In this document: positions 24,571-61,343 of the stretch, in pieces
Layout of the letters: every line of letters starts with the position of its first letter
Position numbering within the stretch: the stretch's first letter is position 1
Translations under genes and position numbers: made by a program
Origin: Lingula anatina
Lineage: Eukaryota > Animalia > Brachiopoda
Length of the DNA stretch: 64,000 nucleotides
Assembly (NCBI GenBank): GCA_051362555.1
Contig: CM120646.1
Coordinates: 19,220,001 to 19,284,000, forward strand
Direction of reading: 5' to 3'
The notes under the pieces: model-generated
Told to the model about the DNA's origin: nothing
The model's database searches: none
What the model saw: only the letters and a program-made list of their open reading frames with translations

Positions 24571-26649
24571 CGCAAATTGTTTTAAAATATATACCAAGTG
24601 AAAACAAACTAATTGTGATTTTTGTATGGGGGACTAGTCATCAAAGTTTTATGATAAGTTTGTACAAAAGTAGCCATGTTCAGAAATGTTGATTGGACTG
24701 TCTTCTGTAATGTTACCTTGGTGTTAAACTAAGTTGCTAATTATGGACACCAGACTGATTAGATAATTAAAATTTTGAAGTAAAGACCTTGCCTGCACTG
24801 GAAGAAACAACAACTATAGTCCATTTTTCCACTTCTCACAATTTTCCAGTCTGACTATTTATAAAATATCTCTTCTATTGGGGAATAAAAACACTGCAAA
24901 TTTTCCCTTGCTTTGAAACAGGTTAATATAATTACACCTTCCAGTAGAACTTTGATACTGCGCAAATCTAATGAGGCCAAGTTTCATATCTGAAGGAAAG
25001 AGAGAGTGCGGGTAAAAGCTGGATCTGCATAAGTTGAGGGTACACTTAAAATGTTTAACTTAAATATAACTTTTGTTGGGGAAAAAATATATGTGTGTGT
25101 GTGTGTGTGTGCGCCTAGTGACACATGCCAAAACTTCACCAACCTAAGTGTGCTGTGAATGAAATCTGATATCAAACAAAAAATGAATTAAATCTGCCAT
25201 TCTCATATAAACAAATAAAGAAACAGGCAAAACAAGAAACAAGGCACTAAAAAGAATAAATAAATAAATTAATAATAAATAAATATATTAATCAATGAAT
25301 AAATGTTGAAACAAATAAAGTTATTTTCAGTTTCGACCTCACATTAATTCTTTAACTAGCATTTACCTAGTACTCCTATTATTTTACCAAAAATGAATTC
25401 AATGTCTTCAATTAACTGATACTGTAATTGCTTTCTCAAATGTAAATTCAAAGTGACTTATATAATTCTTCAGCCAAAGATGACTTGTATAACCAAGCAC
25501 TTATAATAATTTTGGTTTCCTGTGATTCACTTTCTCAAAGAATGAACCAAAACAACTTAAAGCAATTATATTATGGTGAAATACATCCAAGCACCAGTGC
25601 TATTATGTTCAGCTGCTGACTGACAGAATTTGCCTAAAATGTGATACTCCCAATACTTTCAGTGCATTCTCCTAAAACTCTCTTATTTTGATCTAGCTAC
25701 ATTGTTTCTTCGCTCATCTGTCAGGGACTGACATGACCTTAACAACCACTGCCTGGCTTAATTACCAGCCATCTGTATGCAATCACGGGGATATTTTAAA
25801 CATGCTGCTTATGGATGCTGCCTTGCCAAACATAAGTCATCACCATATGTATGTTTAGGTAAAGAAGAAGACATTATTTTATGTATCAGAAAGTGTGTGT
25901 GTGTGTGTGCATGTACATGCGTGTACGCGCATATGTGTGGTACAGATAAAAAACACATCATGTTCACCCTAAACCATAACTTTACACATAGGCTCCAGAT
26001 TTAAATGGGTAAAAATCATATATGAAAAACAACACTTACATATTGATCTTTCCCTGTATCCATGGATATTCTCTTTTCCCTCTGTGACTTTTTTCTTTCC
26101 CAGAGTGGCATATCCTGCTTCTAAAATATTGGAATGCTTAATAGAAGTGCTTTAATTATATTGACTGAGTATTTTGCAGATCAAAATCTCTTTAATAAAA
26201 TCTAAAAAAAAAAAATAAAAATAAAAAAATAAAACATATCACGTCAGAAGCTCAAACATAAGTTCATAAATTCAAACATGAAAACAAATGTGTGATAAAT
26301 TTAAGTCCTGCATAAACTAGTGTAATATACTGATCAGCATGAATTTTCTACTGACATACATTATGCATATGTTCTTGACATTACATGATTAACAATATGT
26401 GGTTTACACTTGCCAACTAAAATTACAAGCAAAAAAATAATTAGTTCATTAAAAAATAAATAATAAATAAAATAATGTTTAATAAATTAATTAAAAACAA
26501 AATGTTAACATTTACAATCCAATTAAAACATATTTAATTCTCAATAGTAAATAAAAATAATCAATTAATATTATATAATAAAAAAGAAAATTCACTTATT
26601 TTATATTTCATATTTTACCTTCTGAAGCCCCAACCATCCAACATGATGG

Positions 26650-27970
26650 CATTATGAGTCACAGCTATCACAGTGTCACGTGCAGTTTACCTGTATTCAC
26701 CTGTGAAACTGACAAGTAAAGGCGCGCCGCCACCTTTGAAACGTACAGGTAACATACACGTGGTATTCATTTCTCGTTCCGGGCAGCAGGGATCACTGAA
26801 AATATAAATCAAAGGCTTCCCTCGAGGAAACATTAAAGACTGCCCTCCAAAAATGTGGTGCTGGTGTTTGAATAACTTCACAACGTCAAATTAAACCGAT
26901 GTTTACCTGTTTTGCCTCACCTGGGTAGACGTGATGTACGTATACACGTATCACTCCGCGGTGCAGGTGCGCGCATTTTACCCAAATATTCCTAATTCAT
27001 TCAAAGCTTGAATTAAGATCACAGAATGTCATTATCGTGATCAATTATTAGATTAGTGAAAGTAGCAGTAATAAGTTAATTATGAGCCTGAACACGGGCG
27101 TTTCACAATCACATGAGTATAGGCCACCTTGCAGTCGCGGAACTTGCGGCTCCAACGTTTCACAGAAGTCATGGCCTCAAAATAGGTGAACTCCATGTTT
27201 TGATGGTTGCTTTGTGGAATTTATGAAACGATTTTTGATAGATGATGCTCAGTTTTGATATAAAAATCACAAAATTGTTCAAGTTTACCTACCGTTTTAA
27301 CGTAAAACAGGAAGTGGAAAGGTGACCTCATTTAGCATGCGCGTCACTGCCCCATCACGAATATCAATTTCAATAGAAAACATGGCAGAAACAGCCAGGT
27401 GCGGCCGAAGAAAACAGCAGAATCCAAGAAAAAAGAATGGTATGACACTTTAAGATATTGTCTTATTTTGTTTTGTTTGTTATTTTTTGTTTTGTTAAAA
27501 AGTCTGGTGAGAATCCACTGTGTACTTTTCGAGAAAATCGTGAATTTGTTCACCGTTGTTTTGCACCTCTGGCCACCTACGGAATGTCAATGATGTCTCA
27601 AAACTAGAAGCAGTTGGCAGCGCGCCAGCTAATTATTCGCTGAATTGTAATGGGCGAACTTTGCTTTAACTGTTTCACTTTGATCTTTGCTGACAATCAG
27701 TCATTTAATTCTCCGATTTTCCAAAGTTGACTGGAAGGTGCGACAGTCTAGGTAGCAAGGTAGGTAAAGCAGGAAGTACGACAGAAAATTGGATTTGCGT
27801 GTACAAAGATGGCGGACGGGGGAGTGTCGCTGAATTGAAATTGCGAAGCAGATCACGGACAACCTAGCGACCGAGGTGGATAAGAAGGAGAGGTTGACAT
27901 TAAAAAAGTTGAAGTTTTGACTTATAACACCTGTTCATGCACACCTGTTCAGGTAATTTTTACCAGGTGT
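26650..27970. promoter_or_regulatory. CpG-rich promoter region of the ZEB-family gene, probably bidirectional
   Basis: Marked local CpG/GC enrichment; CACGTG at 26677 and 26757, ETS CAGGAAGT at 27308 and 27770, NRF1-like GCATGCGC at 27335, YY1-like AAGATGGCGG at 27806, AP-1 TGAGTCA at 26655; contains the first coding exon; base skew reverses here. Confidence 0.75.
27382..27439 (+). CDS. ZEB: First coding exon of a ZEB1/ZEB2/Zfh1-family zinc finger E-box-binding homeobox transcription factor (partial; downstream exons not seen in window)
   Basis: AAAC-ATG-G start context; translates MAETARCGRRKQQNPRKKN plus 1 nt, then donor ATG|GTATGA. Compare ZEB1 MADGPRCKRRKQANPRRNN and ZEB2 ...MADGPRCKRRKQANPRRKN, whose exon also ends in phase 1 after this Asn. 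RRKQxxP is the NuRD-binding motif. Confidence 0.88.
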
Positions 27971-30900
27971 TTCCCAAAATATTCAGATAACATTAATAAT
28001 GAAAAATTCATCAAATTCAATATGTCCAAATTATGAAAAAAAAAATATATATCAAAGAAAAAAATTGTAGTTGTTTCAAATGTATTCTGTGGGTTAATTA
28101 TAAGCCTTTTTCTGACACATGTTGACAAGTTTTTGACACTGGCCTTGCAGTTGGAAAAATAGTGGCAACATCTTTTTATTCTTAACAACAAGCATTTTAT
28201 CAAAAGTTAAAGGGAAAGATTTAGAATAAATGGCTTGTCAAATGGCCAGGAGCATATTTTTAGTTTTTAAGTACTTTTTGGTATTAATAATTTGGATCAA
28301 AATGAAGTTTTTGTCCACACAGCAAGATACTTAACAGGTGGTCAACAATGAAACAGTTTTTAAATTGCGCCCTTTTTTTGTACATTTTCCCCTATAACCA
28401 AGGCCTCCAATTAACCATACTAATAAATCTCTGGTGTATTTTTATGGCTTGACAAGATATATAGAAATAATGTATCTTAGTGGTGCACATCTGCTCATGA
28501 TTATTGTAAAATCAAAAGTGCAAAATGAATAATATCTCCTGGCTGACAAATTCTGAAGCTGCATACATTTGAATTAATCATCATTGATATCGTGTGTGAG
28601 ATATCAGAAATAGACATATAAATTGTGGCCAGATGGCACAAAAGAATATTGGATTATAGATGCCAGCATATGATTATAGGCACTGCTATAAGCCTTAAAC
28701 TGGTTCATAAAAACCCCCTTGCACAGGGCTAGGCTTGGAATTTGTCACAAGATTTTCGGGTAATCCTCTTTTTATTGAATCATGTTGATGTATATGACAA
28801 GGTGCAATTTTAGTAAAATAAAATTATTTTTACGAAGGGTTTTTGTTTCATTATGTTTTCTTAATTGTTATCACATAATACAAATAAAACTTGGTGTGGC
28901 TTTACAAACAACCAAGAAAAAAAGGTGAACATATTTGAAAAGAGGACAAGTTTGAAAGAGATCTTCATTGTAAAACATTATAATAACTGTTAGTTACAGT
29001 TTTATTTTTTATGGTTTCTGATTTCGATTTTTTACTTCATCAGCAGTACCCTCAAATTTTCACATTTTTGTTCAGCAAATTGTATATTGTTTGTTAAATA
29101 TTAGTGATTCCAAGGCCTTTTGTTTATAGCAAGAAGATCCTAAAAGCAGCATTTATCTTGCAAAATGTTAGAAAACATTTGTAGTTCTTTTATCAATTTA
29201 TTGGGAGATTAACTCATTTATTTCGCCTTTATTTCTATATTTAATAATTTGCATTGACAACTATCATTGTTATTGACACGAAAAATAGTTTGTCACGAGA
29301 GATATGGAATATAAACCTCAGTTCAATAAATACAAGATTCAGGGCTTTAGTTATATATTTAATATATGACTTTAGTTTAAGGATTTTACATAATCCAACT
29401 TTATTTCTTTCTTTATATATTCATTTCTTATTTTATTTTATTTATTATTTATTAATATATTTTTTAATTTATAAAAAAGCAAGATACCTATTAGATCCCC
29501 ATTTTTTTTTTTTTTTTTTTTTTTTTTGTAAATGATTATCACTTGACACATTACAATCTATTCAAACTTCTCTTTACTGCCAAGTTCCCCCATTTCTTAC
29601 CAGATTATAATTGTATCAGCTTTGTAGAAGATGTAAACTATATGAATGATGGAAGGCATCCCAGTCAATACAAGTTAATCATCATCGATCTGATGGTTTG
29701 CAGTGTAGACCTATCACAGAGCAGATTATACATCACCAGGGACCCAATATAAGATGATTTGGTCAGAAGTATGTAAAGATATGGGGGTGTGAGCTCTATT
29801 CATTTGCATGGTCCAAAGGGTTTATCCTAGGTCCTATGATATGGATATTCATGAAAAGTGGGAGTGTCCCAGGGATATGTGGTGAGGAATTATGCTTTTC
29901 ACAGTGAATGAATATTCCATTTCACAATGTTGGTAGATTATGCTTGCACCTCACTAAAATTACCAAAATACATTAAAGAATTTCATTACTTTTAGGGAAA
30001 ATGAAAAAAAAATTATAGGAACCTTGTGCTAGTGAGAAAAATTAATAATGTGCTGTGCTAGATATGCAAAAAGAAATATATCTCTGAAGAGGCAAGGGTC
30101 ATTGTGTTTGCCAATGTTCAGATGGGGCATTTAATCTACATAGGACCACTTTGCTGCTGTAGATTTATACAATCAAAGCAAAAAGCCTTGGTGGCTTGCT
30201 GTTAGACCACAATTTTAGTAAGTACTGGGGGAATCTTGTGAGTTAATATTGTTGTTTTCTGAATTGAGGCATTCAGATTGGTAGCATATAGAGGGATTAC
30301 ATAGAGAACTAATGAATTGAATAGCAATCAGACATGTCACATTGACGGTCAGTTCTTAGTTTTCTCTGAGAGGATTGGTCACAGGTATTCATGTGTTCTT
30401 TTTGGGAGGGGGGGGGGGGATTTAAGAAAAACCAAAGATAATTGTATATTTATTTGCCAATTTTTGCCAATTTGGTAAAAATAGCTATGTTAAGAAAATA
30501 AAACACATGTCAAATATACATAAATTCTTCTACCACTTTCCCAATGTGTGTGTATGTGTCAAGTGTGTTGGCAGTAAGCAATGTGCTTCTCCTTCTGGGT
30601 CCTCTGGGATTAAGGAAAATGACAGGACACACTTTTTGTGAGGTAAATTTATTTCCCAGTTAGTCAGATATGTCCTTGCATGAACAGAAAATTCAAGGAA
30701 AGTAAGATAACTTTTTAGTTTGTCATTTCTGGTGCATTTCTGTTCTGATAGGTATTTTTTTATGTAGACCCATTCACCATCTTATTGTTTCTTTTAACAA
30801 AGTTAATAATTTCTATGCTCAGTCAGGTGAATGGTGAAAAGACAATTTTTTACCTCGAAAAAAAGCAGAAACATTTTCTAGAATCCTTCTGAAACCTCTG

Positions 30901-33391
30901 AAATAAAAATGAAGGAAGTCCTGTCCTTGGGACAGAAGGAAACCCCATCTTGGAGCATTTTCTTGGAGATAAGAAACAAACTAGCAGGACAACCTTTCTT
31001 AAGGTGTTGTTTGAAAAAAAAAACTTCGAGGACATTTTCCCACGATTTTCTCCTGTGGTGTGATTTAATGAATTGTAGACAGGTGTAAACAGTTTGGAAA
31101 CCCAATCCTTCCTACCAGATGATAAAACAAGGTACCTATGAAGGCTGCTCAGTTAATCATACGGCACACACGTTAGTTATGCTGGCTCCTGACACCATGT
31201 CATGGCTGTGCACACGTTTTTTGTACAGGAGACACCATAAAAATCCAGAAAGATAGATTAAAATTCCAGGTGCCCATCGGCCATGGTGCCCCGAACCTGT
31301 ATTTCCACCTGGTGCCATATTCTACTAGGTGTGGTGTTCGGGAATGGAAACTCCTGACCTGCCATGCCTTCACGTCTGGACGGTGTTTATCGAGGACAAG
31401 AAACCCATACCTTTTTACTTCAGCGTAACACTCAAATAGTTAATGCATATTGACATCAATTTCTTGAAGCTTTCACATGTTTTTGACAAGATTTTTTTGC
31501 AAGTGAGGAAACAGAGGCCCACATTGTCTAGTTTGCAACTGCTGCTGCAAGATTTTGTAAACTAATAGAAGGCTTTCAGTAATCCAGCAAGAAGCTAAAT
31601 CCTAGGTGTCTGTCACTGTGCCAGCCCACTGTGCCCTGAATCTGGAACTCCAGGCTCCACATGGCTTTGACCAGGTACAACCACCATGCTTTAGTTCCAG
31701 GACACTAAATAAGCCAAAAGTGTACCCAGCTTGGTGTCAAATAGTCCATTGCATGTTGAGAATGAATACACATTACTGTTATGATAATAGGCCCTGAACA
31801 TGACCAAGATGGCCACTTTGCAGCAGAGTGGGAAGGAGCTTGTCTGGCTCTCTGCTGCCAAGGTGGTTTGCTGTGTCATGTGGTGAGTGCCTGTAGCCAT
31901 GGCAACCCTCACCTGTTACCTTGACGACACACCTGGGGCCTGAGGACTACCTTGCTGTCTCCTGGGGTTGTCTCAAGTTTATAGCACTGTTTTTACCCAA
32001 ATTTGAGCTGGGATTGACTGTGACAGTGGTTGGAACTTCAAAGGAGTTTTATACCAATGGCTCTGTTGGAACCATATCATTGATGCTAGAACAAATATGT
32101 ATGGTGACTTCTATTTCACGATTTTTTTTACCAACCAAAAGATGAGTGGTGGAGCATGTTATTTAAACACCTTTTTTAATGATATTTATTATGTTACTTT
32201 GACCTTTCGGTATCTTTGAATTTTAAGATACTTAACAGTTTGTCCTTGAAGTAACTTTTTTAAAATAAAAGGGCCTCCTGTACACAAGTTTTCAATTAGG
32301 CTTTTCAGTTGTGAAAGTTTTTTGAACAAACTGCTTGCTGCTTGTTTGGACACCAATTAAAAAGGTCATTTAGTTGGATAAAAATGTTATGAAACAAGAC
32401 CATTCGTATCGTAATGGAGATACAACACACTTGCTACTGTTTGCAGGTTTTGCTTTTCCTACCGGTGGAAATGACTTTGGCAGTAGAAAAGGAAAGCCAT
32501 GAATTAAAAATTGTAAAAAAACTTTTTCCTGCTTCCTGAGTAGTATCAGATTACAATGATATACCTGACTTTGGTCGCGAAGGCAGTTTTTCAAATTGGA
32601 TTCTGTTCAGACAGTCCCTATTCCAGAAGTCAATGAATTTTAAGGGAAAGTAAAATGAGAATTTAAATGGGAACACTTAAGATTGCATGTCTTTGAAAAC
32701 CCAGTTTAAAATTTACCTTTTTTATAGTCTTCCAATCTTTAAAGTAGCAAATATATATGTATATCTTCTTTGAAATGTACGAAAGAGGAATTATTAACAA
32801 AAATGTTCAAAACAGATTTAGCTTACTTTCCTCCTAGATGTCCCTTGTCAACTGTACCTTTTTATATGTAGTCCGAATGCTTTCTTGGTTAATTTCTGAT
32901 TGTTTCATCTAAATGAAATTCATTGCCAATACATGAACCCCCACTAGACATCTTTAATAAATTGTCTTTTAACAACTGATTTCAGTTTAAATCTTGTAAA
33001 TTTGGCATCTTTAAGTTATAAAATTTAACTTAGAGCAAAAAGCTCACTTTTTTTCATATAGATTGCTGTCCTAGACTGGCTGTAAATGCTGGATTTGATT
33101 TTGGCTTGTCCTGAGACAAATGGAGCCACCTAGGTCAGCAGGGTCACTGGCTGGGGTGTGGTAGCATTTAAATTGTACTTCTTTGTCTTTGACATTGCAA
33201 ATCATTGCAAATCTATCAAATTCTATTGAGTTTAGAACTTTTAAATTACCAAAGGGAGCAGAGAAGGGAGACCACAGCATTTGAAATAAAATACCTTTAT
33301 AAGGTAGCATATCTCCTTAAAGTGCATTTTTTGTGAAAAAAAAAATATGTTTAAGCTAGTCAGCCTGTTGCCCAAAGATTTGAACTGTTTG

Positions 33392-33695
33392 AACCACTTT
33401 TTTTTTGGTACTGATATTATGAAACCCCTATTGTGCCTCACAAAACAACTCAACCACTATTTTCATAGTGCTGGTATTCTGAAACACCTTTGTGCCTCAC
33501 CACTTAATTTGATCACAATTTTCATGGTACTGGTATTCAAAAACCCCTTTATTGCCTTATCACACAACTCAACCACAGTTTTCATGGTATTTGTATTCAA
33601 AAATCCCTTTAGTGCCTCACCAAACGACTCGACTACAATTTTCATGGTACTGGTATTCTTAAATCCCTTAAGTGCCTCACCATACAATTCAGCCA
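33392..33695. repeat. ~60-bp minisatellite, about 5 degenerate copies
   Basis: Unit TTTTCATGGTACTGGTATTC...CCCTTTAGTGCCTCACCA recurs every 59-60 nt; accounts for ORFs 33347-33772 and 33463-33765. Confidence 0.9.
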
Positions 33696-34868
33696 GTGAG
33701 AAGTGCCACATGTTCGAACTGAAAGCTCTGGTTTCTGTAAGACTAGGTGATTGTCTTGTAATCAAGGTATAGAGTGTTTACATCACTGGGACAGGGAGCC
33801 ACAAGTACCAGGTCTTAATCTGGAGAGCAATGGCCGTAGAACAATAACTGTGTGTCATTAAAGAAGGGTTAGACATTGGTTTTATTGCCTCAATTCATCA
33901 AGTTTACTGGGATGTTTTGAGGAAAAAAAGTTAACTAGTGTTATGGTTTGTGGCTTGCTTGAATAGAAGCAGGTGGCACATTTCCAGTTGAAATGAAAAT
34001 ACCAATTAAATTGGGATGCTGTAAAACTTCTTAAAAATTTGATGGTTTTGATATTTTACTTGTTTAAAGGTATATAAAATTATTCTGTTGAATAGCTACT
34101 CAGCTAATGTTTGTACTTTCATTCTTTCCGACATGAAATAAACTTTACTGTATTTTATTGTATTGTATTGTACTGCAAGTTATTTTGATGCCAGCAGAGC
34201 TGAGTTGACAAAAATGACCAGCTAATTAGGATCTGTGAGAGTCCTACTACTTGAGGAAACCTCTATGCTGGTATTTTGGTCGTGTACCTTTAAGTTTGAT
34301 TCCCACCTCCTCTCATCTCAGTTTAAAAGAAGTTATAAAAGAAGTTGTTAAGTGCAAGTTAGGTGCACATCGCTGCCAGCCTGGAAGTGCCTTTCTCACC
34401 TGAATGGTGCTTAGTGCATTCCCTTAACACCTGGACTCCACCAGTGAAAATTTCTCAACTTTGATGTACCTAAATTTACCTGTTTCGTGTTTTATCTGCA
34501 TTGATGTGGGCTATGTGCGCAATGTTACATATGTAGATGCATGTGCTTAACATCAGATGCATCAGGTATATCTTCCATATTTTGTAAAAAGTGTACCGAA
34601 ATGCTTCTATGAGAGATTACTTCAAACTTTGAAGGTATGGCTTTTTGTGTGAAGTAGTGAAATGTTGATGAAATTATGATTATTTTGGAAATTATTACGT
34701 TGGAAGTTTCTTAGTTATGTGTTGCTGGTGAAAAGAAAAAAAAAAACAATATCAGTACAGCAAACCAGCTTTGAGATCAGAAATAAAAAACTTTGTTGGA
34801 GAGAAAAATATTAATAAAATCAACTTGGCATCATTATTTTTCCATGTTATTCCAAGTATCACATTAGA

Positions 34869-34903
<35 letters not shown>

Positions 34904-35558
34904 ATCCTATCCAAACCTCCAAACCATTAGTTTTCTTTTGAGGAAAAAAGGTGTCTAACCAATTTAACATCTGGGCGGTTTTCAGGTAGACATTTCCCTT
35001 CAAGCTGAAAGTTATCTCATTTAGCCTACCTGCCAGGTAGCTGGTGTAGTAAACCAGCCCAGCTGCATGTTTGCGACATTTCAGTGGCATTTAAAACGTG
35101 ATAGGTGTGCGTAAAAATCCAGGTAGTGTAGATTTTCATTCTCCTGAAAGATTAGTTTTAACTTTTTTTCTGTAAACTTAAAAGAAAAGGTCATACTAGA
35201 CTTAATGTATCTTCTTTAGGGAATAAGTTTTTACCAACAGTTTGAATAGACACACCTGTACTAAGAAAGCCATTTTGTTCCAAGTAAATTGGTTCATGGG
35301 CAGTGATGATTTAAGGACGGACAAAGTACAAAATCCTTTAGAGATTTTGCACTTTTAGGTGATTAAAAAGTTGAAAGGATTCAAGGTTTGTAACTTTTTG
35401 TTTACAGTTTGTCAGACAGTTATTGGGCAAGATACTAATAAAAAATGCTAAGACTGAAAGACAACTAATGAGCAGCTCTCCAAAAGGCAATTATACAAAA
35501 CTAAGTAAAAAAAACATATCACCTGTAAGTGAGTAAGGTCTATGGATTTCACCTCTAA

Positions 35559-35837
35559 GGCCCCATTCAGAATAGATGATCCGAGTACTAACTGATCCGC
35601 CGACTAAATATGGCAGACCACACTTCAAAAGCGATGCCGCTGATTCCCGATGGTCTCCCTACTAGTACGTCTACACGCCATCCCCGCAGGGGCCTAGCAA
35701 TTAAACCTTTAATCTCTTTAATGCCGCATGTGGAGGCGGGAGACCATCGAGAATCAGCAGCATTGCTTTTGAAGTGTGGTCGGCCATATTAAGTCGGCGG
35801 ATCAGTAAGTACTCAGATCATCTATTCTGAATGGGCC
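35559..35837. mobile_element. 279-bp hairpin MITE (Tourist-like), well preserved
   Basis: TAA/TAA TSD; ~100-bp near-perfect inverted arms (GGCCCCATTCAGAATAGATGATCCGAGTACT... / ...AGTACTCAGATCATCTATTCTGAATGGGCC); CpGs retained. Confidence 0.9.
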
Positions 35838-37175
35838 TAAGACAGTAATGTGATGGTTGGGTCAAATTTAAGTCCTCGGAAATTGAGGAAACCTTTGGAT
35901 GGTTACTTGCAGGGGAGAGATTGGATGGGAATAGATTCCCCAGAAGTCCGAGAAACTTGAATAATTATATCCCAGAAGTCTTTATCATCCCCAGTGGAAA
36001 GTTATAGGTTGGATGATGCTTTTTAAAAAAATTCCTTGTTGTTTTTGTTTTTGAATCTAGTTTTTCTTCCATGTTCCTCTGATAATGGCCATAGTGTAAT
36101 TTTTCTGATCAGCAATTCAGTTCAACCATATGATTATTTTACCATTGCTATACACTGGGTGACTGGTATACAGACAAAAAAATATCCTTTGATTTTTATG
36201 TGGGTGTAAATGAGATTTGTTTTGTTTAATGTGATTCCATTCTGACAAAGATTATAACTGTCAACCAATTGAAATGTTGAATTAATAAGAAAATAACTTT
36301 CGGTGTTATTCAATGTTCTGTCAAGATATTTTAGAAGTTTTGGCTGAATGGAACAAAATTAAGATTCCATATTACACACAAAAAGAAAAATATTTAAGTC
36401 AAATGTTTGGATCATTATAGTGTTGCCCCTGAAGAAATAATGAAATTGGTGATAAAAATATGACGTCATAAGTTCATATTCTTGTAACAGGTGTCGCGTT
36501 CTACCGTACAATTGTGTTGCTAGTGGTAAAAGTGATTTTTTGTAAAATCAGTATTTGATGTAATTAAGCAATATTGAATCTCCCTTTATGTAAAACCCAA
36601 TAAGGAAGCCATTGTGCAGATAGAAGGAACCGCTTTTTCTCTTAGCCAATGCCAAAATTGTACATACAAACTCAACCACACCTTAGTGCCATGCTCCGTT
36701 ATTGAAAGGACTGACAGAATTCTATGCTGATACAATCCTTGAAAAGTGATGGTACCTTACTTAAGGGCACAGGTGGTACCTGCTCTGTGTATCACTTATC
36801 TCTCATGAAATTTTGATAAGAGAAAAAAAATGCCTTATTTTGGAAATCTATCAAGGGACAAAACTACTGGCTGACAGTGGCAAAGGTTGGTCGTATGGAA
36901 AAGTGCACATCTGTGGGACTTGACACAGTCTAACGAAGGCCCCCAAGTGCTGTCATATGATAGAAAGCATTTCATGGAGAAATAATTTGATGAAGTTTAG
37001 ATTGAATTATAGGAAGGTATATAAAGCAGTTGATCTTATTACCTATTCATCCAATATTAACCTATAATTCAATTGTAGGAGATTTGCTGTAGAATGGACT
37101 TTCTAGTCGGACAACCTTTCTGTCGCATAGTTGGCAGCGGAAGTTGAACTGAGTAGAGGCACTGGTGAACAAAAC

Positions 37176-37209
<34 letters not shown>

Positions 37210-38054
37210 TCAGTGTTACTCAATTTTCACTGGATCGAAATTATGAGACTTTTTATTAAACTTAAAAGCATTTTGTCTAGTAAATTTTTATATATTAATT
37301 AGCAAGTAACATTTTGCAATGGAACATTTGTATTTTATTGGTATAGGTGGAATAGCACACGGTTCTATACTTGATGAAAAATATGTTGATACTTATTGTA
37401 TTCTTACAGATTCTGAAGTGTATGTAGGCCTCATGATTTGAAATTATAAGTTGGATGTATTTACATGCAGCCCAGAGGTGTCAGAATGGAGAGGACTTTT
37501 GATTAATTCCTTTTACGTCTGACTAATTGACGGTGGTAAAAATGTACTTGACAACTTTGAATATATGAATATATGATTGTAATGACATTTATTTGACAAC
37601 TGTTATGCAGCAATAATATGAATGATTTTGATTGGGGTGCAAGGTAAATGTATTCGTTATCTACAAGATTAAATTGATTTTGTGTTTTATGTGTAAATGT
37701 TTTATCTCGAGCCTCTGTCTCTGTTCAAGTTGTAGAGATGAATTTAGATGCTGAGCAATTCAGTAAATTAGCCCACACATTTGACCTCTTATTAAAATTA
37801 GATTTGTATGTAAACTCTATGGTGTTCATTTTTTTAAGCAAGGGAAATGTCTCATTTTATAGTTCAATATTGTTTTTAAGCATGAAGCACAACTCGAGGT
37901 ATGCACGGAGGCCCCAGAGATGTCAATTTGCATTAAGGTGTACCTAGGTAATGCTCACCTTGGGGCTGTAATTTGATTTTATTTCCATTGGTTTTATTTC
38001 TACCTGACAACTGATTATGGTCACCTTGGTACTGTCATCTTGAATTACCTGTAC

Positions 38055-38250
38055 TTTGAGGAGAAGCAGTTCTAGTAAGCAGGAATTTTTTTCCGAAGAG
38101 ACAGTTCCATTATATGGGTTTTATGAGTACAGGCAGTTCCAGTATGTGGATTTTGTTAAAAAAGAGACAGTTGCAGTGTATCAGTTTTGTGAGGAGAGGC
38201 AGTTCCCAACTAAGCTGGTATTATGAGGAAAGAGGCAGTTCCAGTTTGCA
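38055..38250. repeat. Degenerate ~31-35-bp minisatellite, about 6 units
   Basis: Recurrent AG(A/G)CAGTT(C/G) core followed by a T-rich spacer. Confidence 0.7.
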
Positions 38251-41200
38251 AATTGTGTGTTTAGACCAGTCTGAAGATGCAGATGCTGTTTTTCATCCCC
38301 TTGTTATACACCCCCACTATTTTTCTATGGAGTCATTTTTTGAAGAATGCAAAATGAAAAGTTATTTCAGAATTTTATTTCTAAAAACATGTTGAAACAG
38401 TGTATCTGCAATGTTGTAAGTCATATAGGTTTGGCCAAATATCTAGGATGTGACCTGCAAATAGATTTGTTTCACCTACCCTTCTTTTTTTACTTGCAAA
38501 GTTTGTGTGGGAATAGAAGTGTCACTGGGAGTTATCTTCAACCACCTATATACAGGTAGAGAGAATCTAATTGTAGGCTGCCTCTGGCAGTGCGGATAAG
38601 GTCAATGAACTTACTTAACATCTTCATCCACTTGTATCACATTGGAGAACATGGAATAGAATGTCTGCAGTTCCTTTTTGTGCCAGGAGGACTGGCCGTC
38701 TGACATAAAAGGGTATATTTTGCAAACTGAGAGTTAGTGATTATTCCAAGCTTCTACCCATTACTTTTGTGACAATCTGAATCATGATATAAATACAGTA
38801 TTTGACTTTTATTTTTCTAATGAATTTTATGTTCAAATTTTAGAACATAGGTGGGATTTTTTTTTTCTGAATGTTTTTTCGATCAGTCTCTTTTGGGTAA
38901 CAACATGCAATTTCCGAGCAGAAAGATTAAAACAGTTGTATAAACAACCAAGCTGTTACAGCCTTAGGTGGTATTATACCTAGGTCTTGTTATTTGGCAC
39001 ATCCAAGGTTTGCTAAGGTGACGGCACAAGAAGGTAAAAAGTGCTTTTGAGCTCAGAATGGAACACCTAATTAACAAATTAAGGTGAAAGGTACCTGAGG
39101 TGTGTGAGTTTGCCCCTCAGCAGGAGACCAGTAGTCAAGGTGACTGCGTTAAGAGGTAAAAACTACTTCCCTTAATGAATAGAACAGCTAGAAACCTAAT
39201 TTAAGCAACAAGGTGTAAGGTAGTGCCCTCTCCATCACCTGTACAAACAGTTCCAGTTGGCAGTAGTTTTGGGATGAATGGCAACATGATGTAAGCCAAA
39301 TAAGATTTGATAGAAATAAATAATATCAATAATCAGTCAAACTGATATAAATACTTGGAAGGTGAAAGGTGACAACATTTTGAATGAAGGGGGAATGTAA
39401 CCTAGATCACTAGGTATCACCAATATGTCTTCAGGCTACCTATGAAATTATAAAAGGGTGAGGATGGGGGGTAACAGGATGTAATGATTACATCATGGTT
39501 GTCGGAAACATATTATACATTACATAAGACAATTAACCACAAATGAAATATTTTGGAGAAAAAGTATATATTTTCTTCTCTTTTAATTCAATTTAATTAC
39601 CAGGAAGGAAAAGTTATTGGTATGAATCACAGGAAATAATTAATTGATGTCAAATTGGACCTGTAGTTTTAAAGAGTATTGAGTTTCAGTTAAAAAAGGG
39701 TAAACCAATATTTGGCAAAGAGACTTGTGCAAAATTTACAAATGTTGTGTTTTAAGTTGTTAAACTAATTCATGAAAGCAGAGATAGAATTGAAAAAATG
39801 TTTTTTCTCATAATATAATAGATTATGTTAAAACACAAAATGAATTAAAAAAAAAAAGTATTTAGGTAATGAAATTTCAATACGCTGTATATTTTGATAG
39901 CAAAGCATTAAAAGCAAAGCAAAGTCTTGATTGCCTGCATACTCACATGCTCAGATTATCTCAGTCGTACCTAAAACTGTCTTTGTTTTCCAAAAAGCAC
40001 AATGACTGTAATTATGATAACCATAATAACATTATTTACTGGGTAATGTCTGAGAAACGGGTAATAAAACTTGCTTTCTTCATAGTTTACAGGACGGCAA
40101 TTACACACACTCAGCACAGGTTTATCATTTTGAAGAAACAAACGAATGCAAATTGCAAATCAGTTTGCAATGTGAAATTGATGTCTTTTTGTTGGTGTAA
40201 AAAGTCTCTTGATATTAGTTCCCCATGTAGTGGAGAGCAACTTAAAGACACAGGGCCCCAAATTAGGATTTTATCAATTTGATATTCAATATACATATAC
40301 CTGGCAGCAGACTAACAAATTGAAGTTTCAGGATGAAAAGAGCAATTAGTTCTTTGTAGCATGTTCAGCATAATAATTTATCCATGTGAATAGCTACAGG
40401 AATCATGTTAAGGCCCTTGGCTTGAATAGCCTATGTAGCCTTAACTTATACAGAATTCATGGCAAAGTATCATCTAAAGAAGGCCCAAGATGTGTGTGAT
40501 GAACATTGTGAGTGAACACAATAATGAAATCTACATAGCCTCAATTTTCTCAGGTAAAGTGCTCATCAACGTGAATCTCTAGGTAAAAATCAATGGAAAT
40601 TGGATTATTTATTGACGACAAGACAATCAGAGAAGTGCAGAATCACCGCTCAATCACCTCCGCGCTGCACATTATTATGGGAAGGGGTCTGGCTGGGAGT
40701 TGGCTTATGGCGCGCAACTGAGATTTATGGTGCGATGCCTCTCCTGTATCTTGCCATTTATTTTCTCGTTGTTGTTTCATTTTCATAATAATTATTATTC
40801 ACCCCACTGTGTGTTTTGGAGGGTGAGATCAGGTGCTTTTTAAACATGAGAAAACTGAAAGGGGGGGTCTGGAGGGGGGGGGTCGTTCAAATTGACAAAA
40901 TGACTTTTCTTGTTCTTTTCTCTGGAATCACACTGAATATATGTTGTTCAGATTGATTTAAACTAAGTGTTATTTTGTAAATTTAGTATAAATGATGTGT
41001 TTAGAATTTGTTCATGATTTTACAATTAAAACACCTTTTTCTTTCTTTTTGCTTTCTTTTCTTAATTTTTGTTTTCATTTTCAAAGAATGAAGTGAGCAG
41101 TTGTTAAACCAAATGGTTTGAAATAAAGAATAATATTAAAAATATTTTTGTTGGTGTTTTTGATAGTATACTTTAATCATGTATGTAAACTAAACAACAG

Positions 41201-44200
41201 CATCTTTTTTTCACTATTGTAAAATAAACTCTAGGTCCCTTACCTAAATTATGAGAAGAATCTTGATTTTACAAAAATAATACTTGTAAATGTTATGCCG
41301 AAATGCAAGTTAAATAGTATACAAATGAAAATATGTGTATGGTAGAATATTGAATACCAAAACCTTTTTCTAAGATGTAGATGTAAAGAAAATATATACA
41401 TATCTATGACCAAGGCAAAACTTATTTTGATTATAGAAAAAAAATTAAAATAAAAAAAGACAAGAAAAAATATCTTAGATATATGTATGATATATGTAGG
41501 TAATAATAAAATTCTGCAGCCTAAGTTGCCCAGCCTCCAGGTGGTCTTACACATTGATATAAAACCCTTCCACACATAACCTGTACCTGCTAGGAAATAA
41601 ACAACAGGGCTAAATTGTCTCATTGTTTCTGGTTATGTGGATCAGACAGCATTATGTCTATAGTGCTTGTTCCTGCAATTGGATGGAGGGTGATTTATGT
41701 CACAGTTAATTGGATCTGGGAGAAGAGTTAACCCGTGCCATTCAGGTATGTTGTGCAATAGGGGAAGAAAGGCGAAGTGATCCTGGATTTTATGAAAGAA
41801 GTAAAAGGATGAAAAAAGTTTTAAAGAAGGAAAGAAATTCTGGCCAATATTGTTAATTAATAGATCAAATGGGTGTTGTTAAAACCGAAGAGATGTATGG
41901 CACATGTGAAATAATATTTCAGATTTCTTTCTGTTTCTGGCATGCCTAGTTTGTTAAATAGATTTGTCATACATGTACCTGAATCTGTGATTGATATTAT
42001 TACGTATTTACCTATTTATGATAATAGGATTTTTAAAACTTAATTTTGAAGAAACCATGTGAAGTGAGAGTGATTAAATGTAGCTCACAAGGTCAGGTTT
42101 GACTTCTTGTTTCAATAATAGTAATATCACAGAGGAAACGCATACAGTGCAGCATTATAAAAACAAGAAGTGAAAACAATGAGGTCCATATCAGGTCATT
42201 CAATAATTAGCCCTTCTCTTTTAACCATGTGGCTTTGGGAGATAACAAAACTCCTAATAATTAGTCAATTAATGCATGCTGGTTCTGAATTAAAAGTGGG
42301 GAAAAGATACTAAAATAGAGTAAAAAGACAAACAATCCATGATGTATGATTTGATTTGAGCTAAAAATGTAGGTTGATTTGAGAGCATTTTTGTTTTTCT
42401 TTCTATTTTATCCATTTTATAATATATTTAAGTCAGAGAATCTGTCTCAGCAATAAGGAAAGTTTTCACGTGATGGCAAGCTATCTTATGGCCTTGGCTT
42501 TTAAAACAGTATAACATGTTCTTATGTAAAATAAGAATTAAATCCCATGGTAAGACCGATTTCCCCACTGTAGGGTTGCATCAGTAGCATATCTTCAGAG
42601 TGTACATAATCCAAGAAGACATCCTTTTGTTTCCACGCAGCCAATGCATGGTCAGTAGTGCGTGTCACAAGGCACGTGTTTGCACCTCGGAGTGCAGGTC
42701 TGTGTCGTAAGATAACAGTACCCACTTCACCAATTGACAAAGTAAAGGTACTGAGTATGAGAGACTTGACTTCCAGCAGTGGGCAGAGTGAAGTTGAATA
42801 TATATTAGGTCAAATTTTACAATGTTTGAATTAAATGAAAACCACCATGCCAGGTATATGGTTTTAAGGTATGAGAAGAACATGCACTACATAAAGTAAT
42901 TTTCTTGTAGAAATAAGGTTTTGTTATGCTTTAGTTGTATTTTAAGAAGATTTCAAAATGTGTACTGTATGTTAACTGTAGAGCATTTGAAGGGATTCAA
43001 CCTAAGAAGTTCTCAGATCTGAAATTTATGAAATAAAAAATATATTTTAATAATTTTTTAAAGAAATTAAATAATTGTTTGTTGTTAATATTTTTATTAT
43101 CATCAAGAATGAAATGATAAATACTTGGTGAATATATAGATTGTTTGGTTATAGCGATATTTAAAGGATAATATTTTGATATTTATAGTACAAAGAAATT
43201 ATTTGCAATGAAAAATATGCTTTTGATAAATTGTTATGAGCATAAAATGATATTTTGAAAGATAAAAAAACATTTAAGTAAATGGAGACAGATAAAATTA
43301 TGATGTTACCATAAACCCTCGAGCACATTTTTATTAGCTAAAATGTGGAATAAGTTCTCCTCATTTCCTTAAAAAACTGCATTTGATTATACTTTTTATC
43401 TCTTGATTCTTATGCCATGATACTTGATCACCAGCCAAAAGAAACTGATAGTCATAGTTGGATCTTATTGTGTCTGTTGACACAATGCCATGTTTTTTAT
43501 CTTTATATTTGCAGCAGGTTTAAATTACTGTAATTACTCACAGATACCAAACTCGCATTTTTCTGTAATTTTATAGTTTGATATTATTCTAACTCAGATA
43601 ATATTATTAACATTTTATGGCAGGTATCCAACCCGTTTAGAAGAACTTGTGAATCTTTTTTTGTGGATTAATTAACAGTTTTGTTTTGATTTTGAGATGC
43701 ATTTTCATATTACAGATCCACGTTTTTAGTAACCTTCAGTCAAATTTGTGCTATTTTCCTCTCATGATAATGACAATATTTTGAAAACTTATCAGAAAGA
43801 TTGTTTATGGCCAAAGGAATTGTATTTCCTGATGTTTTAGTTAAAGTAATCATTTACTTCAAAACAATTATTGAAAACTTTTTCATCAAAAAAGTGTAAA
43901 GATCTAATCTTTATTTAACCAGAAGGATGGGTTTTAGCCAACTCTCTTGTGATGGTACAGGTAATCCTATAATTACTAATTATCATTCCACTTCAGTGGT
44001 ATATTACCTAATGTGCATGCAAAGGCATTGATGTCTTGGATATAACTGTGACAGATGTCATTATCAACAATGACAGTGAGCGAGGACGAGACTGGAGATG
44101 ATGAACATCAGAATGCCATGCCGTCATTAGCTGGCAAAGTTTTTGCATATAAGACAACAGCATTAATGAAGATGTTTCGTGATTTTCATATTCACAGCTC

Positions 44201-44416
44201 TCACACGTTAGTGACTTTGGTGTGAGGTCGGAGATTAGTATTCTTTTTTTTATTATTTCTGGGGGTTCCATTGATAGTAGTTTGAATTTAAGTTTGTTTT
44301 TTTTTTATGAACTCCCTATGGAAAATGCTTGATTGCAATTGGCCTAATATTATTCAGACAAAACTCCTTCCCTTGTTCATTACTTCCCAGTTGTAAAAAA
44401 ACTAGTGCTTTAATTA

Positions 44417-44613
44417 GAGCACATTTAGAACAGGAAACTAACCAATCCCCGGATCAAATATGGCTGACCCAATTGAATGCTTGTTGCATAATTCCCGCTG
44501 GGAATCATATTCATATTCAGTGTCTGATCAGGAATGAAGTGGCAAGCTTTTTAGTGGGTCGCCATATTTGATCCGGAGATTTTTTAGTCTGCTGTTCAGC
44601 TCCGAATGCACTC
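44417..44613. mobile_element. Family A hairpin MITE
   Basis: CCGGATCAAATATGGC / GCCATATTTGATCCGG inverted; TAGTCTGCTGTT shared with 78-261. Confidence 0.75.
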
Positions 44614-47600
44614 ATAGGGGGTTGCTTTTGAGTAGAAGCATTGAGAAGTTAAGACTAATCTTTTTCTGTTAAAATTGATCCTAACATGGCTACTTTACTA
44701 GACTTCTTTTACTATAATTTGATTTTGTTTCGAAATTTGTTTTCAGTTTTTGCCGCTTTGATCTTCTTTTGGTGAAATTAGGAGATTTCCAAATTCAAAA
44801 GATGTTGGATTCATGTACAAAGATTTAACAAATCACAGAACACCTTTTGCACTCCTGACTATTAAAGTAAAAAAGTGTAAGCATGGTAAAAAAAATCTTT
44901 GTGAAATAAAACAACTCTCTCTTTGATTAATCCTTTCATTTGCACTCACAGAGTGGTAATTACACCTCTGGCTCTGAACGGTGGGATTAGAACTAATGTT
45001 ACTTTAAATAGGAACTGGCTGCTGTGTAATTAGTATCTCCCATGTTTTCTCTGCACAATTACCTTCCTTGTTGTTTCCTGCTTTTACGGTGGTATTTTTT
45101 TCAGGTCAGGGCATCCTTTCAGGAAGACTGTGACCTTATTACTGGTGTTTTGATTGATTTAATTTCTCATATGGCAAACAAAGGAATTGCCACAGTTGCC
45201 ATTTAGCACCTTCATTTGTCAGAATTAGATGAATGCATAAGATTGAAGGAATGGTACATCTAATTGTAAGACATACCATAATATATTGTTTTTTTACATC
45301 ATTTGAATTCTTTCCATGGTCTCTCATTCTTGGTATTTATTTTTCTTGAATTAATAAACTATAAGCCTTGTGATAGGCCAAGGCAAGCAAAATGGGGGCA
45401 CGTGAGCTGATGGGGGGGGGGGGGGGGGGGGGACAGTTTTTTCCCATGTGTGCGTCACTGTACACCTCATTGGAAAAACCATCATTAAAACCAGCAATTG
45501 AAAGCTGTGTCACAAAATAACAAATGTTTTAGTACTTGTAATTTAAACAGTAGTCACCAGGTTGTACTAATATGTCTGGTTCAAGATGGCTATTTGATTC
45601 GAGGATGGAGACAGTGTGGTGACTCCTGGAGATTGAAGGGATAACAGCCATGTTGTCTAGTGGTCTCTGTGTCTTCTTCTTCAGGAGACCAATAATGCAC
45701 CTTGGATTGACTGATAGCAAATTTGAAAAAATTGAAATATATTGAGAAAAAGTTTTGGAGAATTTTTGGAGAGAGAGATCGAGAGAGAGAAAGAACTTGT
45801 GTCACCAGTCACCAAAGAAATAATCAAAATTTAACAACAAAATGCCACAAAGATCCAGTTCATGCAACTGCTGCCTTGATATTCAATAAACTAATATTCA
45901 ATAAACTAATGTTCATACCTTTCATAGAACATTTATGCTGCAGAAACACAAAAGACAACCTGTGCCTTAATTGATAATTTTCTCCAATATTCTCTTTTAT
46001 TGGAGGAATATAATGTGTCTGACCATTGGACTGTAAACAATTTATAGGTTATTTAGTTGTCGTGTACCAGCAGCCAGCACAAACGTAACAAGACCCATTG
46101 TTTCTCCATTACTAGGGCCAGGTGCTTTGCCATAGGCAGCCATTTTGAGGATAGATAACATATCTTATTGTATGTTCATAGTTGTATTGTTTGAGCACTT
46201 TAGGCCAATCACTGGATGAGCACAGACAAATGGTATTGAATTTCAGCAGGTATTTTGATCCATTTAGTTACCAATGAGCATGGAAATGAGCAGTAATTTC
46301 TCTCTTCTCCAGGGGAACTATTACAAAACACCTACATAGCCTTCTATTTTCCTATATGGATTATAAGTAATTATGAATAATTAGTAATATTTTCCCATTG
46401 ATAATCCTTATTCCCTGGCCATACTTTTTATGGTGGGACTCTTGAAATGGATGAATGTGATGCAAATCACCTTAATTAGGACAGAAATGTTTAGGTCCAG
46501 GTGGATAATTAAACTTGGCACATTTCATAGTTATTATTTCTTCCTCATAATTTTGAATGTCATGATGATTTATGAAAATGTGGCAGAATGGTTTTATCTG
46601 TGTCACGTTTGACTATGAATAGAAATCATCCTTAGTTGGAGGTGTGCAGTTATTCCAAAAAAAATGTAATATTTAATTTATTTTACTGGATATTAGAGAA
46701 TTCAATGGTAAATTGTAAAAAAAAAAAAATAGAATAAGGTGTCACTGAAATTGTGAAACTTCTGCAAAATTTGTAAGAAAAGTTAGATAAGATACCTAGA
46801 GTTAATTGTCACAAAGTTTAATCAAACAGATATTTATATATGTTTCAAGGCAAAATAGGGCTAATTAGTCTAATAGGCAAAATGGTACTCACCATTAATG
46901 ACCAGCCTTCTTTTACCAAGGGGGTGTCATTTCCTTGGTTTTTGTCTTTTGTCACTTTTCTCCTGCAATAAGGTGGTCTTTTGTTTATTAACACTGGAGG
47001 TGGATGTTCTTCATTATTTTGTCACCTTACTATAGTGTTACTTCCTGATATTCTTGCTACATGGGACCAGGGGGTGGGGAGGTGGATAGGTGGAGCAGTT
47101 ACTGACCAGTGCACACAATGAGGTTATTGACCAATGGAGATAATAAAGAGGAGGGAGTTAATGACCATTCAATAGAGCCAAACATCCTTCCCAGGTGTTA
47201 AAGTGTCTCACTTTCATTTTGCTCACTCTTTTGATAATTTGGTACAAACAGAAAGTTTACAAAGACAATGAGCTTACTTCGTATATGATTTTGTATTGTG
47301 CTAAATAAGTACATTTATGTATATATAAATATAAAAAAAATAAAAATGACTGGAATTGAAGTATCCAGTGTAGAAGTAGATTTAAATGTGGAGGCACACT
47401 TCAGTGGGTTTTTATTTTAATCTGAAAAAGCAACAAAGGTTGGGATATTTTTTTTTATTGCATCATTCACTTCCTAAAGAGGGTCCCAGCTTCTTGAATT
47501 AATTTCCAAAGCAGGTGCCACTGCTGAAAGAGAGAAAGGAAATTAGTGCTTCTTTAATAGTGACAAATGTTTTTAGATTTCAGCAAATGAAACAAAACAC

Positions 47601-48854
47601 AATCTTTGCCATGTCAAACAAATAAACATTGAGAATAAAAGGACCACTGGAAGGTAAACCTATTGGTCAACTCAGTGGTCAAACCAAGTTCTTTTGATCA
47701 AGACAGGGCCTTAAGCCATTTCCTCACATGGATACAGTTAGTAATCCTGTAATAGTCACTGAGATATTTATCTAGCAACTGTCAACTGCTGAGATGTCTT
47801 TATTAACTGTTCCAAGATTTAACAAAGTTCTACTTTACAAAGTACCTTATAAGTATTAATGACGGTATGGATAACACCTATTTAAATTACATCCTTGGTG
47901 TAAATATTATCAGTGTTTTGGATCTCCCTTCCCTTCCTCAGCACCTTTCCTTTTGTTTGTGTGTCTGAAAAGCCAGGTGGGATTTTCTCTTGTTGTTGTT
48001 GTTGTTGTTGATCTGAGGTCAGTTTTAAGACCAAAACTTGACTTTATCAGGTGACATGCCAGCTTAAGAGGTGTCACTTTCTTTTTGTTATGAGGGAAGT
48101 ATCCTGTATTTATTAGGCATTTCACTTTTGGAATAGTTCAAGTTGGTGATTTTAAAAGGTTAGGTAACTTGCATTTTGAGTGATTTTTAAAAAGTGAAAC
48201 AAGAATTTATCTTGGGAGAAAAATACATGTTAGAGCTCTTTGTACAATCATTATGACGTTTCTTAATTAGCCTGAAGTCAGTAGATTGGTTAATCTATTT
48301 TCATCTGTACCTATTTTACCACCTGTCAACCCCTTTATGAAATTCCAGTTGGACTTGCCCAGGACTAATCAAAGTTATGTCTTGCCTTGTGATGCTTCAT
48401 TTACATCTGGTTCTCTGACTCAGCACCTGAGGTTACAGGAGTCTCTAGAAGCAGCAGGGAACTCCAGGTTAGAACCCACTGTAGTGATAGACAGAGAGAG
48501 ACTTCTTTACTGAATCATTCATTCTGATTGCCATATTGTTCCTTGAGTACACACCAGGAGCAGAAGCTGCAGAAGTCGAGAGACAGATAACTGACTCTAG
48601 AAGTTTTGGTCCAAGCTGATTTTCTTTTTTGTGTGCCGCGTTGTTTTTTATTATCATTGAGTGAGCCGCTTGAACTTTTCCAGAAGTTGAGACAGACTTT
48701 TATTTGTGGGAAGCAAGATACGGTTGGAACACAAGTGAAGTATTTCATTGAACTTTTAGGAAGTTGTTGAGTCAGACATGAAGTGCTGTGTTCACAGTTA
48801 GGTACGCTGCCAGTGGTCAGTGACTTTATCATTGAGGGCCAGGTTTTGTGGACA

Positions 48855-51644: not shown

Positions 51645-51677
<33 letters not shown>

Positions 51678-60232: not shown

Positions 60233-60233
<1 letters not shown>

Positions 60234-60289
<56 letters not shown>
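60234..60289. repeat. Compound (CA)n(GA)n microsatellite
   Basis: Seen directly. Confidence 0.95.

Positions 60290-61312: not shown

Positions 61313-61343
<31 letters not shown>

What the first reader, a model, noticed from the sequence alone, without database searches (positions are those of the whole stretch)
27382..27445. Hidden ZEB/Zfh1 first exon with a vertebrate-type NuRD motif and conserved intron position
Seen: a 58-nt ATG exon too short for the ORF track, encoding MAETARCGRRKQQNPRKKN and ending phase 1 at GTATGA. Established: ZEB1/2 begin with MADGPRCKRRKQANPRR(N/K)N, a NuRD-binding RRKQxxP motif also used by FOG1, SALL and BCL11, followed by a phase-1 intron. Inference: this invertebrate keeps the ancestral NuRD-recruiting exon, separated from the zinc fingers by more than 36 kb, so automated gene models could easily omit it.
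Basis: partly seen in the sequence, partly recalled or inferred. Interest (0 to 1): 0.8.

Follow-up and report, generated by a model that had tools for sequence, protein, structure and literature searches.

The report
Invertebrate ZEB's NuRD-motif first exon
This short spliced exon is most likely the start of an invertebrate (reportedly brachiopod) ZEB gene, and it encodes the peptide tag that human ZEB2 uses to recruit a gene-silencing complex; annotated scallop and snail ZEB proteins begin the same way, so it is an ordinary member of a known family that likely dates the tag to early bilaterian animals.

Summary
A public cDNA-like contig covers the exon from a 5' end at 27359 and leaves at the donor, continuing in frame with Val into an exon that is not in the window. 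The closest full-length proteins are RefSeq ZEBs of scallops (15 of 19 identical) and of a snail. Vertebrate ZEB2 gives 13 of 19. Five other animal loci end this motif at the same G|GT. So this is very likely ZEB/Zfh1 exon 1 with an RRKQxxP NuRD motif. This gene's zinc fingers were not seen, and NuRD binding is inferred. The exon is neither vertebrate-specific nor generally hidden, because mollusc models already include it; I found no paper that notes it. Side findings: mollusc models include isoforms without the motif; the intron holds about three times the expected number of ZEB-type CAGGT(G/A) sites while the upstream DNA shows no excess; and there is probable divergent RNA. Verdict: new member of a known kind, modest interest.

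The parts
27359..27439 (+). First exon as transcribed (5' UTR of about 23 nt plus the coding part)
   Evidence: X1 contig fits 27359-27437. The 15 loose letters before 27359 look like a template-switch cDNA adapter (identification recalled), so this is a cDNA 5' end.
27382..27439 (+). 58-nt coding part, MAETARCGRRKQQNPRKKN + G (phase 1)
   Evidence: 15 of 19 identical to scallop ZEB and 13 of 19 to vertebrate ZEB2.
27406..27426 (+). RRKQxxP NuRD-interaction motif (RRKQQNP); the basic residue that follows also fits the internal-type RKxxxPxK/R consensus
   Evidence: Consensus from PMC11602157 passages and PMC3020727 passages.
27440..27445 (+). Splice donor GTATGA
   Evidence: The contig leaves the genome here and stays in frame; one X8 read is inferred from depth values to end at 27439.
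27440..64000 (+). First intron, running past the window end (over 36.5 kb); 28001-64000 is enriched in CAGGTG/CAGGTA half-sites on both strands
   Evidence: Next exon and zinc fingers absent. Half-sites 45 vs 12.4 and 35 vs 13.7 expected.
26601..28000 (.). Promoter region: CpG o/e peak, GC-skew switch, 11 CAGGT(G/A) half-sites
   Evidence: CpG o/e is 0.80-0.89 in 26001-28000. The cumulative G-C minimum is at 27002, and there are 7+4 sites against about 0.9 expected.
27565..27578 (+). Paired ACCT...CCACCT element, aligned in loci L005 and L009
27809..27819 (+). 11-mer ATGGCGGACGG kept at +370/+355/+342 from the donor in the window, L005 and L009 (YY1-like, recalled)
   Evidence: 6 of 424 window tiles (both strands, overlapping, own region included) share any 11-mer with both loci.
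26640..27329 (-). Probable divergent/antisense RNA (inferred)
   Evidence: All 20 laid X5 reads (10 first mates, 10 second) fall in the first-mate-on-plus class. X8 reads here fall in the class opposite to the X8 read at the exon. Library strandedness is not on record.

Best explanation
This is a spliced phase-1 exon that most likely begins the animal's ZEB/Zfh1 gene, and its RRKQxxP peptide is predicted to dock the protein on the RBBP4/MTA subunits of NuRD. Shown: the exon, a cDNA 5' end 23 nt before the ATG, use of the donor in one contig, an intron longer than 36.5 kb, and N-termini of the same kind on full-length mollusc ZEBs. Inferred: the downstream exons encode two C2H2 clusters and a homeodomain that bind paired CACCT(G) sites; the N-terminal peptide brings NuRD to those sites to repress or remodel chromatin, as for ZEB2; and the excess CAGGT(G/A) sites in the promoter and intron serve self-regulation.
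For: An alignment built only from the window and unnamed invertebrate-type peptides gave 7 hits among 113 candidates. [quoted passage not shown] Both have C2H2 clusters and a homeodomain, and the scallop protein matches a frog ZEB2 at E 1e-54, with 76% identity in the C-terminal fingers. The motif starts at residue 9 in both the window and scallop ZEB, with 15 of 19 identity and Val next. BCL11B's 19 N-terminal residues (PMC4505893) match only 6 of 13 overlapping positions, with the motif at residue 3. 5 of 9 metagenome loci end the motif in G|GT although GT was not in the pattern. In 59 of 59 proteins of 900 aa or more, the next residue has a G-initial codon. The ZEB2 exon-2 junction is at the same place. 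ZEB2 R22G abolishes NuRD binding (PMC8304685 passages). Fly NuRD binds such peptides (PMC7891773 passages). ZEB half-sites are enriched 3.6- and 2.6-fold downstream and not upstream.
Against: No zinc finger or homeodomain of this gene was seen: no genome is held and only 30 letters of the next exon were printed. Splicing rests on one contig, from a run with a different organism label whose RNA status is a guess, plus one inferred read; no joint was tabulated. The bare peptide found nothing useful alone. The protein searches collect candidates by shared words, so FOG, Teashirt or ZNF423 relatives were not scored side by side. The half-site excess was not repeated in L001 (3 vs 11.3 expected) and was only weak in the L009 intron (5 vs 2.0; 9 of 200 shuffles). 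Snail and bHLH factors also bind CAGGTG (recalled).
Confidence: 0.87

Rival explanations
1. It is the first exon of another RRKQxxP zinc-finger gene (FOG/U-shaped, Teashirt, OAZ/ZNF423, SALL, BCL11 or ZNF827), and it recruits NuRD in the same way.
For: The core motif is shared by these proteins (PMC3020727; PMC11602157; PMC7891773). Their motif exons also end in phase-1 introns (recalled; BCL11B's 19-residue exon is replaced in frame by ZEB2 exon 2). The downstream domains were not seen.
Against: BCL11B carries RRKQ at residue 3, as do the others (recalled), not at residue 9 after MAExARCG. The best full-length matches are ZEBs at 15 of 19 and 13 of 19. None of the 120 listed of 657 hits is named after these families, although that alignment included vertebrate ZEB-like peptides.
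Confidence: 0.04
2. It is ZEB exon 1, but in this lineage the basic peptide acts mainly as a nuclear-localisation signal and no longer recruits NuRD.
For: The same ZEB2 peptide was read as NLS-only in PMC4505893. No binding test exists for any invertebrate ZEB in the papers I saw.
Against: R, K, Q and P, plus the following basic residue needed for RBBP4 binding, are all kept across vertebrate, mollusc, annelid and window sequences. An NLS would not need the Q and P.
Confidence: 0.07
3. It is a chance reading in non-coding promoter DNA, or an orphaned exon no longer joined to ZEB.
For: The donor GTATGA is not the strongest consensus, raw-read coverage is thin (4, 20 and 4 reads laid), and no protein with this exact start was found.
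Against: 0 of 300 simulated windows held the extended motif. A contig splices at the donor into an open frame, and the flanking non-coding elements are conserved in position.
Confidence: 0.02

Closest known systems
Mollusc ZEB/Zfh1 RefSeq models (Mizuhopecten XP_021362484.1, Pecten, Argopecten, Ylistrum; Physella XP_059140150.1)
   Same: N-terminus 15 of 19 identical (scallop), motif at residue 9-10, RCG before RRKQ, and the same exon boundary as judged from where the isoforms diverge.
   Different: Their full domain content is modelled, whereas the window's is unseen. The second exon diverges after the shared Val.
Vertebrate ZEB2 exon 2 / ZEB1 first coding exon with the NuRD-interacting motif
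   Same: 13 of 19 identical, the same junction after ...RKN + G, and Val next in most models. NuRD binding is shown for ZEB2 (review passages).
   Different: RCG rather than RCK. The exon appears to be the first transcribed exon, whereas ZEB2 has a non-coding exon 1. No extension before the MAD-type start.
FOG repression motif proteins: FOG1/2, SALL, BCL11, EBFAZ/OAZ, Drosophila Ush-B
   Same: RRKQxxP core that binds RBBP4/MTA. In Ush the motif sits on an isoform-specific N-terminus, as the mollusc ZEB models suggest here.
   Different: The motif is at the extreme N-terminus there, with different flanks and different DNA-binding domains.

Membership tests
ZEB/Zfh1 | N-terminal RC-x-RRKQ-x-NP-basic-basic-KN peptide | tested here: met
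   15 of 19 identical to scallop ZEB, 13 of 19 to ZEB2; the full-length hits are ZEBs.
ZEB/Zfh1 | Phase-1 intron directly after the motif's Asn, next residue from a G-initial codon | tested here: met
   Contig junction gives Val; 5 of 9 loci end in G|GT; 59 of 59 long proteins. Not ZEB-specific, from recall.
ZEB/Zfh1 | Two separated C2H2 clusters with a central homeodomain | not testable with these tools
   Absent from the window and no genome held. Present in the closest relatives P0124 and P0125.
ZEB/Zfh1 | CtBP-binding PxDLS-type motifs | not testable with these tools
   They would lie in unseen exons; PLDLS is present in P0124 and P0125.
ZEB/Zfh1 | Binding to bipartite CACCT(G) sites | not testable with these tools
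   Indirect only: the locus is enriched in such sites and they cluster within 50 bp (18 vs 8.3 expected, p 0.001).
RRKQxxP NuRD-interaction motif proteins | RRKQxxP near the N-terminus | tested here: met
   RRKQQNP at residues 9-15; consensus.
RRKQxxP NuRD-interaction motif proteins | Physical binding to RBBP4/MTA | not tested
   No RBBP4 sequence was fetched and no complex prediction was run.
FOG / SALL / BCL11 / OAZ / Teashirt | Motif at residue 3 directly after the start | tested here: not met
   The motif is at residue 9. BCL11B position; the others are recalled.

The most novel reading that the evidence does not exclude
The bilaterian ancestor's ZEB carried its NuRD-docking peptide on a separate first exon that alternative promoters can swap out, giving NuRD-coupled and NuRD-blind isoforms. 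RefSeq predicts such motif-less isoforms in three scallop species and a snail, and this window has unproven candidate mini-exons with phase-1 donors after 27952 and 29881. The 36-kb-plus first intron is a field of some 80 ZEB half-sites through which the motif-bearing isoform controls its own promoter. Flies would have lost the module: a Drosophila proteome search reported only Ush-B and OAZ.
Probability: 0.25. Interest if true: 0.5.

Novelty: new member of a known kind. Interest (0 to 1): 0.3.

Why it matters
A ZEB2 review says orthology and shared mechanism of the invertebrate proteins are not firmly shown (PMC8304685 passage), and the fly's known motif-bearing proteins do not include Zfh1 (PMC7891773 passage). 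The same peptide, with the same exon boundary, in this animal, molluscs, an annelid and vertebrates implies that ZEB-NuRD coupling, whose loss causes mild Mowat-Wilson syndrome, predates the protostome-deuterostome split. It also flags a mini-exon that annotation can mis-join. The data are already in public gene models, so the gain is a small evolutionary clarification rather than a new system.

Tried and rejected
No whole genome was held, so the downstream exons could not be searched. The run search listed no holder on record as RNA; this is no evidence either way. Reads were laid only on 26640-28000, so the rest of the intron has no read evidence. The bare peptide gave no PDB hit and no hit among 2 candidates. 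Among the 50% representatives it gave one repetitive singleton, P0001, which I rejected as chance. The profile against the PDB gave one chance hit at E 2.4. Pfam found nothing in 53 selected frames of the 467 of 45 aa or more, so no neighbouring gene and no synteny test. Four of the 9 metagenome loci were dropped as non-exonic: L002, L007 and L008 are one bacterial-looking locus, and L003 has a stop. L001, L005 and L009 hold no ZEB fingers within the stretches held, so their ZEB label rests on the motif. The scallop alternative first exon has no match in the window (the printed output covered P0128 and the start of P0129 only, so the snail exons are unjudged). The half-site excess is not one repeat family (flank identity at most 21 of 40, mean 10.3). 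It is not a recursive-splicing signal either: it is on both strands, with only 2 plus-strand YAG|GTRAG sites. A second X1 contig at 27771-27828 leaves without a clean donor and its continuation is not in the window; unexplained. The PDB search with scallop ZEB returned only generic C2H2 proteins. Earlier-findings look-ups for this locus or for ZEB were empty.

Full report
Observation. The window reads ATG at 27382 and runs 58 nt to 27439: 19 codons (MAETARCGRRKQQNPRKKN) plus G, then GTATGA. Unspliced, the frame stops at 27451. It is the only RRKQ in six frames, and there is no C2H2 pattern anywhere in the window. In 300 order-3 Markov copies of the window, RRKQxxP arose 4 times, with a nearby Met once, and RRKQxNPR[RK] never. 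The exon sits at the window's CpG o/e peak (0.80-0.89 in 26-28 kb) and at the switch of GC skew (minimum at 27002), as expected of a promoter with long transcription on both sides (inference). No other coding sequence was recognised: 0 Pfam hits in 53 of 467 frames.

Splicing. Reads were laid on 26640-28000 only. Contig 1 of run X1 (1705 nt, depth 33; RNA status a guess; organism label A, while the raw-read runs are labelled B) fits 27359-27437 with no other letters. Its 15 loose letters before 27359 look like a template-switch adapter (recalled), which puts a cDNA 5' end 23 nt before the ATG; a truncated reverse transcript cannot be excluded, and X2 reads start near 27300 on an uncertain strand. 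After a synonymous change in the Asn codon, the contig leaves at the donor and continues in frame: Val, then D-L-E-N-A-L-E-G. One X8 read is inferred from the depth values to end at 27439. No joints were tabulated, and coverage was thin (2 contigs; 4, 20 and 4 reads). The next exon is not in the window (0 matches at 3 mismatches; one minus-strand 5-of-8 peptide match). Full-length mollusc and frog ZEBs hit only this exon (E about 2e-4 to 3e-3; all else E 0.59 or worse). The intron therefore exceeds 36.5 kb.

Which gene. A degenerate scan of metagenome contigs for RRKQxNPR[RK][KN]N+G gave 9 loci. Five are exon-like, and all five continue GT, which the pattern did not ask for. L004 and L006 have vertebrate ZEB1/ZEB2-type starts, L005 and L009 have RCG-RRKQ like the window, and L001 has RCSG-RRKQ. 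The other four are not exons. A profile of all these peptides gave 657 hits among 838 candidates. Every informative name among the 120 listed is a vertebrate ZEB, but this profile contained vertebrate-type rows. A profile without them gave 7 hits among 113 candidates: three unnamed genomic read-throughs, a 140-aa Ridgeia piscesae model with an unnamed twin, and two full-length RefSeq ZEBs, of Mizuhopecten and Physella. Both full-length proteins have C2H2 clusters and a homeodomain, and the scallop protein matches a frog ZEB2 at E 1e-54 and 76% in the C-terminal fingers. The window peptide is 15 of 19 identical to scallop ZEB, with the motif at residue 9 in both, and 13 of 19 to ZEB2. In all 59 motif-bearing proteins of 900 aa or more, the next residue is V, A, E, D or G, all with G-initial codons, as a shared phase-1 boundary predicts. 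Human ZEB2 exon 2 encodes 24 residues and ends at the same G (PMC4505893 passages; PMC11818587 passages). L005 and L009 also share non-coding elements with the window in the same positions: an 11-mer 342-370 nt into the intron, a paired ACCT/CCACCT element, and CATGCGC 46-50 nt before the ATG. Earlier AI notes on other pieces call this genome the brachiopod Lingula (unchecked), which fits the mollusc and annelid neighbours.

Mechanism. RRKQxxP peptides bind the top pocket of RBBP4 and also MTA1, with the R, R and K residues essential (PMC3020727 passages). A basic residue after the Pro adds affinity, and ZEB2 is listed with this variant (PMC11602157 passages). ZEB2 R22G loses NuRD binding in mild Mowat-Wilson syndrome (PMC8304685 passages). 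Fly NuRD binds such peptides, and only the Ush-B isoform carries one (PMC7891773 passages). The window peptide keeps all these residues, so I infer that it recruits NuRD to the sites bound by ZEB's fingers. Nothing here tests binding.

Side results. 3 of 10 scallop cluster members and 2 of 4 Physella cluster members begin with other short N-termini that lack the motif and join the same second exon. This suggests alternative promoters giving NuRD-blind isoforms; these are predicted models and one Logan fragment, not validated transcripts. In 28001-64000, CAGGTG/CACCTG occurs 45 times (12.4 +/- 3.9 expected, maximum 22 in 100 shuffles) and CAGGTA/TACCTG 35 times (13.7 +/- 3.7). In 1-26600 the counts are 10 and 12 against 9.6 and 11.5. 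Other E-boxes are mostly not enriched in the intron; CACGTG is (5 vs 1.4). The sites lie on both strands, are not one repeat, and cluster within 50 bp. Mouse Zeb2 and worm ZAG-1 regulate their own genes (PMC10048071 abstract and passages; PMC4256384 passages), so self-regulation is a fair reading. Against it, L001 shows no excess, L009 only a weak one, and there is no genome-wide background.

Known or new. The family, the motif and its partner are known, and mollusc RefSeq models already include the exon, so it is neither vertebrate-specific nor generally hidden. Annotation can still miss it: the Ridgeia model joins it to sequence unlike ZEB, oyster Zeb was not in the original gene predictions (PMC5322547 passages), and no protein with this exact start was found (weak, since only cluster representatives are searched). 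No listing in searches reports the motif in an invertebrate ZEB. I saw only the top listings of these, the library lacks most subscription papers, and I did not read Verstappen et al. 2008, which may hold such an alignment. No supplements were read. From recall, FOG, Teashirt and ZNF423/521 motif exons also end in phase-1 introns, so the intron position alone is not diagnostic.

Verdict. This is a real, spliced first exon, very likely of ZEB/Zfh1 (about 0.94), and likely NuRD-recruiting (about 0.87 overall). It is a new member of a known kind; interest 0.3.

Noticed in passing
window 28001-64000 versus 1-26600: About threefold excess of ZEB-type CAGGT(G/A) half-sites downstream of the promoter (80 vs about 26 expected) and none upstream; CAAGTG is depleted (9 vs 23).
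   Followed up: partly
window 27928-27969: Four half-sites in 42 bp. One overlaps a possible phase-1 donor after 27952 that would close an M-H-T-C-S mini-exon; no reads there.
   Followed up: partly
window, donor after 29881: A second ATG-to-phase-1-donor candidate (15 codons); no read test.
   Followed up: no
window 26640-27329: Reads of one orientation upstream of the exon plus about 27 kb of negative GC skew suggest a long divergent transcript, like ZEB1-AS1/ZEB2-AS1 (recalled). There is a minus-strand CAG|GTGAG near 26923.
   Followed up: partly
window 27771-27828: A 177-nt X1 contig matches only this conserved stretch (with a 2-nt insertion) and leaves without a clean donor. The conserved 11-mer in it reads M-A-D-G, like the vertebrate ZEB start, probably by coincidence with a YY1-type site.
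   Followed up: partly
P0128, P0129, P0134, P0135, P0137: Scallop and Physella ZEB isoforms with alternative first exons that lack the NuRD motif.
   Followed up: partly
P0122 (Ridgeia KAK2166911.1): A 140-aa model that starts with the ZEB-type exon but continues into sequence unlike ZEB; probably a mis-joined gene model.
   Followed up: no
L005:1500-1710 and L009:5190-5390: These two loci share several long intronic blocks, including TTTTGGCGGGAAATGTT (E2F-like, recalled), that are only partly kept in the window.
   Followed up: no
window 33392-33695 and 6475-6643: Tandem arrays with a 60-bp period (5.1 copies) and an 89-bp period (1.9 copies).
   Followed up: no
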